Positions 27,760 through 30,587 of a stretch of 32,000 nt of DNA are shown here, one piece after another. The translations under genes were made by a program, and so were the position numbers. Source of the DNA: Promethearchaeota archaeon (lineage in GTDB: Archaea; Asgardarchaeota; Hermodarchaeia; Hermodarchaeales; Hermodarchaeaceae). Positions within the stretch are counted from its first letter, which is position 1. Every line of letters begins with the position of its first letter. The notes below the pieces were generated by a model. It had not been told where the DNA came from. It was given only the letters and a program-made list of their open reading frames with translations, and made no database searches. Location of the stretch: the NCBI GenBank assembly GCA_048938295.1, contig JBHLMI010000013.1, forward strand, positions 1 through 32,000, given 5' to 3'.

Positions 27760-27913
27760 TTAAAGAGTGGTGAAATCCACGACATCCTCCCTTTCAAAAC
27801 GAAAAGATTTCGGACTTTTCCTTTCCGTTACGCTCGTCGCCGAGGCGCGTTTTGACCGAAACTTAACCAGGTTCCGACGCTTCTCCGCCCCGCACCTGCC
27901 CCTTGTTCAGGGG
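27760..27913 (-). ncRNA. Candidate structured RNA A (unassigned family)
   Basis: GC-rich intergenic stretch with several stems, a GCGA tetraloop and G-U pairs on the minus strand. Shares a colinear motif with element B. Confidence 0.4.
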
Positions 27914-28183
27914 AATTTCTTGATACGCTGGAAGGGGGCTTCATGTACGTGGATGTAGCCCTGCCGCATAATGACTGGTACGATACAATCCCAGTCGGGC
28001 ATAACTATGTATTCGATATCAAATGCATTAAACACCACAAGTAATTCTCAGCAAGAATGAGAGACTTCGTAAGAATTCCTCTTCGAATGATGTTCATTCT
28101 TCCCACAATTGAAAAGCCAATCACTTCTTTTCGGAAAACCCTTAAAGCAAAGATATAGCCCAAAACTGCCATAGGTGTATACT

Positions 28184-29440
28184 ATGGTAGACCACAAAGT
28201 GCGCGATCTCAGCCTAGCCGACCAAGGCCGAAAGAAAATCGATTGGGCCGAATCGCAAATGCCCGTGTTGATGGGCATCCGAAAACAATTCGCTAAAACC
28301 AAGCCTCTCGAAGGTTTTCGGATTTCTGGCTGTTTACACGTGACCAAAGAAACTGCGGTGCTAGTTGAAACCTTTGTAGCAGCAGGGGCTGAAGTTGCTT
28401 GGTGTGGCTGTAATCCACTCTCGACACAGGACGATGTGGCTGCAGCACTTGTTGCGAATGATGTGTCGGTGTTTGCCTGGCACAACCTGAATACGGAAGA
28501 ATACTACTGGTGTATCGACCAAGCCCTCAAGATTAATCCTCAACTAACCCTCGACGATGGAGCAGATCTCATTTTTACGGTGCACACAAAACAACCAAAT
28601 CTTGCCAAGAAAATCCTTGGCGCTTCAGAAGAAACCACCACCGGCGTCCACCGTCTGCGAGCAATGGCTGCTGATGGAAAACTCCAATACCCCGTTATTG
28701 CGGCGAACGATTCGGTGACGAAACATGATATGGATAATGTCTTCGGCACAGGACAGTCGGCACTTGATGGGGTCCTTCGGGCAACCAACATCTTGTTTGC
28801 TGGAAGCACCGTTGTGATCGGCGGATACGGTCACTGCGGGCGTGGACTTGCTTTGCGTGCACGCGGGATGGGTGCTGATGTCATCGTCACTGAAGTTGAC
28901 TACCTTCAAGCTTTGAAAGCGCGGATGGAAGGTTATCGGGTCATGCCCATGATTGAAGCCGCTCCACTGGGAGACGTCTTTATTACCTCAACGGGAATGC
29001 GCGATGTCATTAGAAAGGAGCATTTCGCGGTCATGAAGGACCGAGCTATCCTAGCTAATGCGGGTCATTTCAACGTCGAAGTGAATGCTGAAGAATTGAC
29101 CAAGATGGCGAAAAAAGAACGGGTGATTCGCGAAAATAACCGTGAATATACATTGAAAGATGGGCGTCGGATCTACCTTCTCGCTGAAGGACGCCTAGTG
29201 AATCTGGCTGCGGCTGAAGGCCATCCTTCGTCGGTAATGGATTTGTCCTTCTCCAACCAGGTTTATGCCATGATTTACCTAAAGGACCATCACAAAGAAC
29301 TCTCCAATGAAGTCTACGTGCTCCCACGAGAAATCGATGAAACCATTGCTCGATTAAAACTGGAATCCATGGGCATCAGCATCGACCAGCTGACTCCCGA
29401 ACAACAACGGTATCATCAGGATTATGCCGAAGGCACTTAA
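28184..29440 (+). CDS. ahcY: S-adenosylhomocysteine hydrolase
   Basis: GCLHVTKET, CNPLSTQDD, DDGAD, EETTTG, FGTGQS, GYGHCGRG, NAGHFNVE, GRLVNLAAAEGHP. AGGTG RBS before ATG 28184. Confidence 0.97.
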   Translation: MVDHKVRDLSLADQGRKKIDWAESQMPVLMGIRKQFAKTKPLEGFRISGCLHVTKETAVLVETFVAAGAEVAWCGCNPLSTQDDVAAALVANDVSVFAWHNLNTEEYYWCIDQALKINPQLTLDDGADLIFTVHTKQPNLAKKILGASEETTTGVHRLRAMAADGKLQYPVIAANDSVTKHDMDNVFGTGQSALDGVLRATNILFAGSTVVIGGYGHCGRGLALRARGMGADVIVTEVDYLQALKARMEGYRVMPMIEAAPLGDVFITSTGMRDVIRKEHFAVMKDRAILANAGHFNVEVNAEELTKMAKKERVIRENNREYTLKDGRRIYLLAEGRLVNLAAAEGHPSSVMDLSFSNQVYAMIYLKDHHKELSNEVYVLPREIDETIARLKLESMGISIDQLTPEQQRYHQDYAEGT

Positions 29441-29569
29441 CCAACGGATATCTGCTCAACACGAGGACTTTTCAACCAGTGCCAGGGTTAATAGCAGCTA
29501 ATCCTTTTTAGCCAGTTCGGACCACTGAAGGTCAAGAACTTTTACTTCGGAGGCTAGTCAAACCGGGTT

Positions 29570-29828
29570 CACTTCACAGGTAGGGTGGGACACCTATAAA
29601 AGCCGCAAACGCGCTAGGTGTGGCTGGTCGCCGCGAGTTGCGTGGAGACCCTAAACGCCTGGTCCGCGAGGCGGGAGGTGACAGCCCCTTTGGGGCAGTG
29701 CCCGTCGATGACGCAGGAACCGAACACCACCTTTGGCGTGTCCGAGGTGGGTAAGTTTCGGACAACGGTACTGTAATCCTTCACAACTAGTTGCTGGTGG
29801 ATTCGGATTGGCAGATGTTAAACCGTTC
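29570..29828 (+). ncRNA. Candidate large structured RNA B / structured leader of the creatininase gene
   Basis: At least 9 nested or consecutive stems with plus-strand G-U pairs. Possible BRE/TATA (AAGAACTTTTA) at about 29534-29544. Ends 1 nt before ATG 29829. Confidence 0.55.
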
Positions 29829-30587
29829 ATGCTCGGGAAGCTGACCTGGGAGGAAGCTAAAGCGCTCTTCGAAGAAACGGAGATTGCTATCATACCTGTT
29901 GGCTCCCAAGAACAACATGGCCCAGCTCTCCCTCTCGATAATGATGCATTTCAAGCCCAGGAATTTGCCATTCGTGTCGCGGAGGCGCTGTGGCCAAAAA
30001 TCAAAACCGCTGTTACTCCCCTGATTTCTTATGGGGTGTCTCCGCATCACATGCCCTTCGCAGGAACTATTACGTTGAGTGGCGACACTTTCATTAATCT
30101 CATCGTGGATGTGGGAAAAAGCCTAGCTAAACATGGTGTGAAAAAAATCATTGTCATGAACAGCCATGGAGGAAATACTGCTGCCCTTTCCCTCGCTTTA
30201 CGGAGACTACACGATGAAGAGGGCTTATGGTGCGTAGGACTCGAGTGGTGGAAAATCACTGGCGATTTGGTTCAAGAAATCTTTGAACCACCGCATTTCC
30301 ATGCTGATGAAATGGAAACATCAGCAGCTTGGGCATTGGGGCAACGCGTATTAGAAGACAAGCGGGTCGACGAGCCGGGACGTGAACCTGTTCCAGGATT
30401 TTCGAAAGCAACCATGTTTCCTCCACAACCGCATATCATGCCTGTCTGGGATACCACAGATCTCACTGATTCAGGAACCATCGGATATGCGACTCGAGCT
30501 AGCCCGGAGAAGGGACAAAAAGTCGTGGATGAAGCAGTGAAACGGATGGTCGCCTTTATAGAGAAAGCAGTGACCTACGTGAAGTAA
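29829..30587 (+). CDS. Creatininase / creatinine amidohydrolase (MftE-like) family protein
   Basis: MLGKLTWEE, PVGSQEQHGPALP..ND, NSHGGN, HADEMETS, G.IG..TRASPEKG. The track's upstream start at 29733 lies inside the structured element. Confidence 0.9.
   Translation: MLGKLTWEEAKALFEETEIAIIPVGSQEQHGPALPLDNDAFQAQEFAIRVAEALWPKIKTAVTPLISYGVSPHHMPFAGTITLSGDTFINLIVDVGKSLAKHGVKKIIVMNSHGGNTAALSLALRRLHDEEGLWCVGLEWWKITGDLVQEIFEPPHFHADEMETSAAWALGQRVLEDKRVDEPGREPVPGFSKATMFPPQPHIMPVWDTTDLTDSGTIGYATRASPEKGQKVVDEAVKRMVAFIEKAVTYVK

What the first reader, a model, noticed from the sequence alone, without database searches (positions are those of the whole stretch)
29570..29828. About 250-nt densely structured intergenic RNA of no recognisable family
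Seen stems: TAGGGT/ACCCTA (29581-86/29648-53) enclosing ACACCTA/TAGGTGT (29590-96/29615-21); CGCCT/AGGCG (29656-60/29669-73); GCCCC/GGGGC (29684-88/29692-96); CGTC/GACG (29703-06/29710-13); CCGAA/TTCGG (29720-24/29757-61) enclosing CCACCT/AGGTGG (29727-32/29745-50); AACGGT/ACCGTT (29764-69/29822-27) enclosing CTGT/GCAG and AATCC/GGATT. G-U pairs and GCAA/GCGA loop sequences favour the plus strand. The last stem ends 1 nt before the creatininase ATG, and no RBS is visible. I could not match the hallmark motifs of RNase P, SRP, 5S, or SAM/SAH/B12/TPP/FMN riboswitches. GGAAC-CGAAC...AGTTT loosely recalls group II intron domain I, and GCAGATGTTAAACC loosely recalls the hatchet ribozyme 3' end, but no domain V or RT gene is present. 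Inference: a novel large ncRNA, ribozyme or riboswitch, or an intron-derived relic.
Basis: partly seen in the sequence, partly recalled or inferred. Interest (0 to 1): 0.72.

Follow-up and report, generated by a model that had tools for sequence, protein, structure and literature searches.

The report
Gene-less transposon carrying TnpB guide RNA
The "mystery structured RNA" before the creatininase gene is a 281-base, protein-less copy of an IS607-type jumping gene that keeps only the transposon ends, a promoter-like box and the guide-RNA (omega RNA) scaffold of the TnpB nuclease; this is a known kind of element, not a new riboswitch or ribozyme.

Summary
A real structured RNA is encoded here on the + strand, but it is shorter than reported (window 29627-29768) and belongs to a known class.

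- **Insertion:** window 29488-29768 is absent from the same ahcY-creatininase spacer in five congeneric genomes.
- **Repeat family:** there are 7 copies in this genome and up to 17 in relatives.
- **Origin of the core:** in about half of 49 sampled copies, the 142-nt core overlaps and follows the 3' end of an intact tnpB gene. This is where the TnpB omega (guide) RNA scaffold lies.
- **Fold:** a six-helix fold has strong covariation support.
- **IS607 marks:**
  - The left flank is RGGG and the scaffold ends in AACGG.
  - One relative has a complete serine-recombinase/tnpB/omega element.
  - The covariance model also hits the 3' ends of bacterial IS607 tnpB genes.
- **This copy:** it has no tnpB. 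It carries a 100-nt module specific to the mini-elements, with a TATA-like box 22-25 nt before the scaffold.

Most likely it is a stand-alone omega RNA used in trans by TnpB to re-cut the emptied site. Transcription and activity were not tested. Stand-alone omega RNAs are already published, and this scan found like elements before in other genomes. Interest is low.

The parts
29484..29487 (+). Left flank AGGG. This is the TAM-like target motif; its last GG (29486-87) is the presumed serine-recombinase crossover dinucleotide.
   Evidence: RGGG precedes the left end in 17 of 17 left junctions found in mini and full-length copies. The empty site in G014 reads ...CTAGGG|TAGTTTATTCC. This matches the IS607 rule (GG core, TGGG TAM) in bioRxiv 10.1101/2023.11.20.567912.
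29488..29524 (+). Transposon left end: an imperfect terminal palindrome (TTAATAGC/GCTAATCC) followed by a T-rich box.
   Evidence: Left ends of mini-elements align from window 29483-29485 onward. In G001, the first 39 nt of a mini-element are 95% identical to the left end of a full-length tnpB element of the same genome. The same motif lies about 1.2-1.4 kb upstream of the scaffold in full-length copies.
29525..29626 (+). Module specific to the mini-elements and absent from full-length elements. It holds a conserved TTCACTTC (29568-75) and a TATA-like box TATAAAAG (29595-29602). This is the inferred archaeal promoter of the stand-alone omega RNA, with a start predicted near 29625-29628.
   Evidence: The module has no match in full-length elements. 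It is conserved among 10 mini-elements of 6 genomes (A3). The box is kept in 8 of 10, followed by a 21-24 nt spacer of unconserved sequence before GTCG. The promoter function is inferred, not shown.
29627..29768 (+). TnpB omega RNA (reRNA) scaffold, which is also the transposon right end. Helices: P1 29627-29649; P2 29658-61/29714-17; P3 29670-75/29701-06; P4 29681-88/29692-99; P5 29720-24/29757-61; P6 29727-32/29745-50. It ends in ...CAACGG.
   Evidence: The same sequence overlaps the 3' end of tnpB ORFs. Model R1 scores 167 bits here. On 49 copies, 94.5% of cells are paired, 19 pairs change on both sides and 0 of 500 shuffles reach this; slid controls give 34-49%. Conservation stops after AACGG. 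Metagenome contigs of other copies diverge at 29768/29770.
29769..29788 (+). Predicted guide segment of the omega RNA (TACTGTAATCCTTCAC...). This is native flanking DNA that was adjacent to AGGG before the insertion.
   Evidence: The sequence after AACGG is unrelated between copies (A1/A2). It is homologous to the empty sites of relatives. Its role as guide follows from published TnpB biology and is inferred here. This genome holds no other site combining this 16-20-mer with a GGG motif.

Best explanation
Window 29488-29768 is a non-autonomous, gene-less derivative of an IS607-family (TnpB-carrying) insertion sequence. It inserted at an AGGG site between ahcY and the creatininase gene.

It consists of three parts:
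1. the transposon left end;
2. a roughly 100-nt module found only in such mini-elements, which carries a TATA-like box;
3. the 142-nt omega RNA scaffold, which doubles as the right end.

Proposed mechanism:
- The box drives transcription from about 29626 through the scaffold into the adjoining 16-20 nt of flank, which becomes the guide.
- A TnpB protein encoded by a full-length family member loads this RNA in trans.
- If a serine transposase excises the element, the restored joint (AGGG + TACTGTAATCC...) is recognised and cut.
- Repair from a copy that still holds the element puts it back (homing/retention).

Shown here: the insertion, the repeat family, homology to tnpB 3' ends, the fold, the IS607-type junctions, and intact D-E-D TnpB genes in the same genome.

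Inferred: transcription, loading in trans, cleavage, and which enzyme moves the element.
For: **Dispersed repeat.** There are 7 copies in this genome. 16 of 18 genomes of the same family, plus one genome of another family, have a match at E <= 1 (13 of the 18 with a strong core match).

**Empty sites.** G001, G012, G003, G014 and G002 lack the element at the same spacer, which brackets the insert at about 29487/29488 and 29768/29769.

**Link to tnpB.**
- In C15, C33 and C57 the core directly follows and overlaps intact tnpB genes of 411-431 aa (OrfB_IS605 + Cas12f1-like TNB + HTH). In C7 the tnpB is broken.
- Of 49 sampled copies, 25 follow a (near-)full-length tnpB (the C7 copy is split by a frameshift), 23 have none and 1 is cut by a contig end.

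**TnpB looks active.** The C15 protein aligns to ISDra2 TnpB (8H1J, E 4.5e-66), and the aligned motifs where I recall its catalytic D/E/D to lie are kept.

**Fold.** Six helices, 94.5% of cells paired, 19 pairs with changes on both sides, 0 of 500 shuffles as good. The fold is also kept in the gene-less copies alone, on an alignment not fitted to it: 92.2% paired against 35-46% when slid.

**IS607 type.**
- The best plasmid hits are IS607 tnpB genes next to IS607 transposases.
- G029 has a Resolvase-domain gene, tnpB and an omega RNA scoring 139.7 bits.
- R1 hits the 3' ends of bacterial IS607 tnpB genes: Microcystis 40.4 bits (E 2e-10), Rhodothermus 24.4, Thermus 16. It does not hit an IS605 one.
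- The left flank is RGGG in 17 of 17 junctions and the scaffold ends in AACGG. This parallels the published TGGG TAM and ...UCGG scaffold end.

**Own promoter-like box.** A TATA-like box sits at a fixed distance from the scaffold, with a variable spacer, in the mini-elements.

**Precedent.** Stand-alone omega RNAs used in trans, and PATE-like elements encoding omega RNAs, are published.
Against: - No transposase that could move the element was found in this assembly (91.6% complete). Y1 transposase, Resolvase and Cas1 searches were all negative.
- In the taxonomic family, Resolvase was found in 0 of 18 genomes and Y1 in 1 of 19. The copy may therefore be immobile now.
- The tnpB-linked scaffolds in this genome are only 76-81% identical to this one. 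Closer tnpB-linked scaffolds (84%) occur in relatives. Compatibility with a resident TnpB is therefore not assured.
- No T-run terminator follows the guide, so the 3' end of the RNA is undefined.
- The exact boundaries are ambiguous by 1-3 nt because of the repeated G's.
Confidence: 0.85

Rival explanations
1. Dead relic. The element is IS607-derived, as above, but is now an inert fossil. It is not transcribed as a guide RNA, and its helices persist only because too little time has passed for decay.
For: No cognate transposase was found in this genome or in 18 family genomes. The MFE of the window copy is not better than shuffles. Two of 10 mini-elements have a degraded TATA-like box.
Against: Mini-elements form their own lineage with a shared module in at least 6 genomes. 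They differ by 16-25% in sequence yet keep 92% of pairs, with some changes on both sides. Presence/absence differs between congeners. Two copies in this genome (C3 and C40) share a nearly identical scaffold start at different loci.
Confidence: 0.1
2. Host-domesticated regulator. The insert now serves the creatininase gene, either as its promoter or leader (read-through from the TATA-like box) or as a guide for TnpB-based repression.
For: The element points towards the creatininase ATG 60 nt downstream, with no T-run between them. Where relatives have AATAA-type boxes upstream of the gene, the window reads CACAACTAG. A second mini-repeat lies in the same arrangement upstream of another gene.
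Against: Five congeners express the same gene pair without the element. Other copies sit next to unrelated genes such as SRP19/TFIIB, an ABC-type binding protein and tRNA genes. The guide has no second GGG-flanked target in the genome. The resident TnpBs keep the nuclease triad, unlike known domesticated repressors.
Confidence: 0.04
3. One reading: a novel riboswitch, ribozyme or large ncRNA, or a group II intron or hatchet relic.
For: The region is G+C-rich, structured, intergenic and on the + strand, and it has no Rfam hit.
Against: It is multicopy, mobile and homologous to tnpB 3' ends. It is not syntenic with any gene class. No group II, hatchet or riboswitch model matches at E<=10. Four of the proposed stems fail the comparative tests, and the closing stem with its two enclosed stems spans the element boundary and cannot be conserved.
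Confidence: 0.01

Closest known systems
Stand-alone omega RNAs of OMEGA systems (Altae-Tran et al. 2021, as summarised in PMC10691335) and PATE-like gene-less IS elements that encode omega RNAs (Meers et al. 2023, bioRxiv 10.1101/2023.03.14.532601)
   Same: A mobilised element without effector or transposase genes. It keeps the transposon ends and an omega RNA scaffold, and it lies in the same genome as effector-containing copies. Use in trans is presumed.
   Different: This one is archaeal and IS607-type rather than IS605-type. It is not a plain internal deletion: it carries a roughly 100-nt module of its own with a TATA-like box. No transposase was found in this assembly or its taxonomic family.
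IS607-family TnpB omega RNA, e.g. the C. botulinum IStron (Zedaveinyte et al., bioRxiv 10.1101/2023.11.20.567912)
   Same: A GG core dinucleotide at both junctions, a target or TAM ending in GGG (TGGG there, RGGG here), and a scaffold ending in CGG that differs from the TAM at position -3. A serine-recombinase partner is present in the G029 homologue.
   Different: There is no group I intron. The sequence family differs. The TAM here is inferred from junctions only.
ISDra2 TnpB with its omega/reRNA (PDB 8H1J, 8EXA, 8BF8)
   Same: The resident TnpB proteins align over about 380 aa (E about 1e-66) with the aligned motifs holding the nuclease triad (as I recall its positions) conserved. The scaffold likewise overlaps the last ~40 codons of tnpB, and the peptide encoded there is similar.
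   Different: ISDra2 is moved by a Y1 transposase and uses a TTGAT TAM. The RNA sequences could not be compared here.
Rfam omega-type families: sotRNAs RF02656/RF02657 and RAGATH-18 RF03064
   Same: Same functional class, namely RNAs at tnpB 3' ends.
   Different: None of them matches this sequence even at E<=10, so this is a separate sequence family without an Rfam model.

Membership tests
TnpB omega RNA (reRNA) scaffold | In autonomous copies it lies at, and overlaps, the 3' end of a tnpB gene in the same sense. | tested here: met
   The core starts 0-7 nt after the TNB-domain match in C15, C33, C57 and C7, and the ORFs run about 100-120 nt into it. 25 of 49 copies follow a (near-)full-length tnpB.
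TnpB omega RNA (reRNA) scaffold | The conserved scaffold ends at the transposon right boundary and is followed by locus-specific sequence (the guide). | tested here: met
   Conservation stops after AACGG in 49 copies. Contigs of other copies diverge at 29768/29770.
TnpB omega RNA (reRNA) scaffold | A conserved secondary structure supported by covariation. | tested here: met
   Six helices, 94.5% paired, 19 pairs with changes on both sides, 0 of 500 shuffles as good; slid controls give 34-49%. Caveat: that alignment was fitted to the model. An unfitted MAFFT alignment of 10 mini-elements gives 92.2%.
TnpB omega RNA (reRNA) scaffold | Is transcribed, binds TnpB and guides DNA cleavage. | not testable with these tools
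   No RNA run could be listed, so no RNA data could be examined.
IS607 family (serine-recombinase transposons) | A GG crossover dinucleotide at both junctions and a target motif ending in GGG. | tested here: met
   RGGG in 17 of 17 left junctions; the scaffold ends in GG in 42 of 49 copies (AG in 7). The G014 empty site reads TAGGG|TAG.
IS607 family (serine-recombinase transposons) | A serine recombinase (TnpA_S) gene upstream of tnpB in autonomous members. | tested here: inconclusive
   Met in G029: a 188-aa Resolvase-domain ORF overlaps the tnpB start. Not found in this genome or in 18 genomes of its family. All of these are incomplete assemblies.
Stand-alone omega RNA / PATE-like non-autonomous element | No protein gene, both transposon ends kept, several copies at unrelated loci, and presence/absence variation. 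| tested here: met
   No tnpB by tblastn. The left end is homologous to that of full-length elements. Copies occur at unrelated loci. Five empty sites were found.
Riboswitch / cis-regulatory leader | Conserved position upstream of one class of regulated genes. | tested here: not met
   The creatininase genes of five congeners lack it. Other copies lie beside unrelated genes.
Group II intron / hatchet ribozyme | A match to the domain models (D1-D4, D5 or hatchet). | tested here: not met
   No such match at E<=10 on either strand.

The most novel reading that the evidence does not exclude
The mini-elements are not decay products. They are a separate, long-lived lineage of promoter-equipped guide-RNA cassettes, built from the left end, a dedicated TATA module and the omega scaffold. 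They persist and vary in copy number across a whole archaeal family in which no IS607 or IS605 transposase is detectable. That would imply either spread and maintenance by TnpB-driven homing alone, or host use of the cassettes (promoter donation to downstream genes, or RNA-guided control).
Probability: 0.1. Interest if true: 0.55.

Novelty: new member of a known kind. Interest (0 to 1): 0.17.

Why it matters
Mostly as a correction. A G+C-rich "orphan structured RNA" in an archaeal intergenic spacer turns out to be a TnpB guide-RNA scaffold that Rfam does not yet model, so similar calls in related genomes can be resolved quickly with model R1.

It also adds a documented archaeal IS607-type omega RNA family, giving its fold, its RGGG target motif and its AACGG scaffold end. 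About half of the sampled copies are gene-less.

It raises one modest open question: what moves or maintains these elements in a clade where no cognate transposase was found?

Tried and rejected
- **Rfam:** gathering-score scan of the whole window and an E<=10 scan of the region gave nothing usable.
- **Single-sequence folding:** not better than shuffles on either strand.
- **tRNA scan of the window:** none found.
- **H-type pseudoknot TGTCC/GGACA (29739-43/29760-64),** proposed in another note: 74.6% paired against 73.9% in shuffles (132 of 500 as good), and it competes with the covarying helix P5. Rejected.
- **Y1-type (IS200/IS605) reading:** I held this at first. I dropped it after finding no conserved T-rich TAM, GG at both junctions, IS607 neighbours and the G029 element.
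- **RNA evidence:** no RNA holder was listed in either run search.
- **Metagenome contigs:** they showed no joint across the element, so no excised form was seen, but contigs drop rare variants.
- **Simple-deletion origin of the mini-element:** rejected, because the middle module has no match in full-length copies.
- **Second genomic target of the predicted guide:** none with a GGG motif.
- **Not attempted:** structure prediction, complex prediction and large protein-database searches, as the question did not need them.

Full report
**Setting**

The finding lies in the 388-nt spacer between an S-adenosylhomocysteine hydrolase gene (28175-29440, +) and a creatininase-family gene (29829-30587, +). 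The spacer has a local G+C peak of 0.66 against about 0.47 around it.

**Checking the observation**

No Rfam 15 family matches. The gathering-score scan of the window was empty. An E<=10 scan of 29380-29900 gave only a noise hit on the minus strand, and nothing for group II intron, hatchet, RNase P, SRP or riboswitch models.

The 259-nt stretch does not fold better than dinucleotide shuffles: z = -0.69 on the + strand and -0.24 on the - strand. On single-sequence evidence alone, the finding would fail its own refutation test.

**A dispersed repeat**

A DNA search of the genome found further copies of the core (window about 29627-29769) on contigs C40, C7, C39, C33, C15 and C57. Up to 17 copies occur per genome in relatives. 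16 of 18 genomes of the same taxonomic family have a match at E <= 1 (13 of them with a strong core match), and one complete genome of another family (G029) has a strong one.

In metagenome contigs, depth rises about tenfold over 29612-29779. Contigs of other copies diverge from the window at 29768/29770.

**It is an insertion**

The same ahcY-creatininase spacer in five congeners (G001, G012, G003, G014, G002) lacks the element. Their sequences run from ...TTTTCAA(C/T)CAGT.. straight into ...TAATCC/TAAACC.... The G014 site reads CTAGGG|TAGTTTATTCC. The window reads CCAGGG[TTAAT...CAACGG]TACTGTAATCC.

The insert is therefore 29488-29768 (281 nt). The boundaries are uncertain by 1-3 nt because G's repeat at both junctions.

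**What the core is**

Aligning the copies showed that in C7, C57, C15 and C33 the sequence just upstream encodes the zinc-ribbon and RuvC-III end of TnpB.
- The ORFs are 411-412 aa (C33, C15) with OrfB_IS605, Cas12f1-like TNB and HTH_OrfB_IS605 domains. C57 has a 431-aa open frame, and C7 is split.
- The repeat core begins 0-7 nt after the TNB-domain match, and the ORF runs about 100-120 nt into it.
- That is the position of the TnpB omega RNA (reRNA), whose scaffold doubles as the transposon right end (published biology).
- The C15 protein aligns to ISDra2 TnpB (8H1J, E 4.5e-66). The aligned motifs GVDVG, IEG/TEH and DRD, which by my recollection hold ISDra2's catalytic D, E and D, are all kept, so the resident nucleases look active.

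**The fold**

An alignment of 29 copies (A1) showed conservation ending exactly after CAACGG. I built a covariance model (R1) and realigned 49 copies (A2). The six helices are:

| Helix | Window coordinates |
|---|---|
| P1 | 29627-29649 |
| P2 | 29658-61 / 29714-17 |
| P3 | 29670-75 / 29701-06 |
| P4 | 29681-88 / 29692-99 |
| P5 | 29720-24 / 29757-61 |
| P6 | 29727-32 / 29745-50 |

Of all cells, 94.5% form pairs, 19 pairs show changes on both sides, and 0 of 500 shuffles reach this. Slid controls give 34-49%. That alignment is fitted to the model. An unfitted MAFFT alignment of 10 gene-less copies still gives 92.2% paired against 35-46% when slid.

- CGCCT/AGGCG and CGTC/GACG show no excess covariation. 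They compete with P2 and P3, which do.
- The two 5' stems (TAGGGT/ACCCTA, ACACCTA/TAGGTGT) are paired in only 46.5% of cells among homologous mini-elements, equal to shuffles.
- The closing stem pairs the element end with native flank and is a coincidence.
- A pseudoknot proposed in another note is not supported.

**IS607 type, not IS605**

I first assumed a Y1 (IS200/IS605) element. The evidence pointed elsewhere.
- No Y1 transposase was found in this genome, and only 1 of 19 family genomes has one.
- No T-rich TAM is conserved at the left junction.
- The best plasmid matches to the TnpB are IS607-family genes next to IS607 transposases.
- In G029, the homologous omega RNA (139.7 bits) follows a 398-aa tnpB, which is preceded by a 188-aa Resolvase-domain gene that overlaps its start.
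- R1 hits the 3' ends of bacterial IS607 tnpB genes in Microcystis (40.4 bits, E 2e-10), Rhodothermus (24.4 bits) and Thermus (16 bits). Each hit ends in AACGG. R1 does not hit an IS605-annotated tnpB.
- All 17 left junctions found have RGGG before the element, and the scaffold ends in AACGG.

This mirrors the published IS607 rule: a GG crossover dinucleotide at both ends, a TGGG target/TAM, and a scaffold ending in UCGG that differs from the TAM at position -3, which spares the element itself.

**The window copy is gene-less**

It has no tnpB. Of the 49 sampled copies, 23 are like this, 25 follow a (near-)full-length tnpB (the C7 copy is split by a frameshift) and one is cut by a contig end.

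The mini-elements share three parts:
- the left end, whose first 39 nt are 95% identical to the left end of a full-length element in G001;
- a roughly 100-nt middle module with no counterpart in full-length elements, conserved among 10 mini-elements of 6 genomes (A3);
- the scaffold.

The module carries TTCACTTC and a TATA-like box (TATAAAAG, 29595-29602). The box is kept in 8 of 10 mini-elements. A spacer of 21-24 unconserved bases follows it before GTCG. That is the geometry of an archaeal promoter that would start the RNA at the first base of P1. This is inference, because no RNA run could be listed.

**Most likely mechanism**

The element is a stand-alone omega RNA gene. Its transcript (scaffold plus the adjoining flank, TACTGTAATCCTTCAC...) would be loaded in trans by a family TnpB. 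It would direct cleavage of the vacated AGGG + flank joint after excision, so that repair restores the element. This is the homing/retention role shown for IS605 and IS607 elements. Stand-alone omega RNAs working in trans are already described. The guide has no other GGG-flanked target in this assembly.

**Caveats**

- No Resolvase, Y1 or Cas1 gene was found in this 91.6%-complete assembly. No Resolvase was found in 18 family genomes.
- The tnpB-linked scaffolds of this genome are only 76-81% identical to this one.
- The element may therefore be stranded or inert; I give that rival about 0.1.
- A host role, such as donating a promoter to the creatininase gene 60 nt downstream, cannot be excluded. 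Nothing requires it, because five congeners do without the element.

**Verdict**

This is a real structured RNA of a known kind: a new archaeal member of the IS607 omega RNA class in stand-alone form. It is not a new RNA class.

Notes from this scan report the same kind of element in other genomes (e1-2791004, e1-3625992, e1-2617648). I reached this reading before seeing them, and I did not test them. The label "Asgard" for this genome comes from other notes and was not tested here.

Noticed in passing
window 27780-27985 (- strand): A second dispersed mini-repeat of about 205-215 nt on the other side of ahcY. It starts TATGCCCGACTGG and ends GGGAGGATGTC. There are 3 copies in this genome (also C53:34709-34884 and C35:25831-26035) and up to 6 in congeners, with no tnpB within 2.5 kb. 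It shares ordered motifs with the omega scaffold (CCCC..GGGGCAGGTGC, GGAACC, TAAGTTTCGG), but R1 does not hit it and Rfam has no match. A consensus fold exists with little covariation. Its identity is unresolved.
   Followed up: partly
G000 contigs C6:23700-24200, C2:82250-82760, C19:1-520, C33:107200-107700: Other tnpB families in the same genome have different 3' regions, each containing ...AGTTCAC about 140-160 nt past the RuvC-III motif, near where a scaffold end would be expected. This recalls the GTTCACTCA motif reported downstream of Asgard Cas1-linked tnpB genes (PMC10691335). No Cas1 was found in this assembly.
   Followed up: no
L052:121-197, L059:1668-1745, L061:1660-1737: Three full-length tnpB elements of this family in relatives lie about 200 nt downstream of tRNA genes (Ile-GAT, and Glu-TTC twice).
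   Followed up: partly
window 29627-29750 and L006:1501-1623: The first ~120 nt of the omega scaffold also encode the last ~40 residues of TnpB (...VAASWSETINA...). This peptide is recognisably conserved in ISDra2 TnpB (...VAAGISDTLNA...), so one stretch is under both protein and RNA-structure constraint.
   Followed up: partly
window 29782-29795 compared with L014, L015, L021: Upstream of the creatininase gene, relatives have A/T-rich boxes (AACAATAAG, AGTAATAAT, CAATAAAGA) where the window reads CACAACTAGT. A native promoter box may have weakened in the lineage that carries the insert. This is speculative.
   Followed up: no
window 29300-29768, run X3 contig record 9: One metagenome contig follows ahcY and the whole element, then continues at 29768 into unrelated sequence (AAGAAGGATTTGATAG...). 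This is either an assembly chimera through the repeat or a strain with a rearranged right flank.
   Followed up: no
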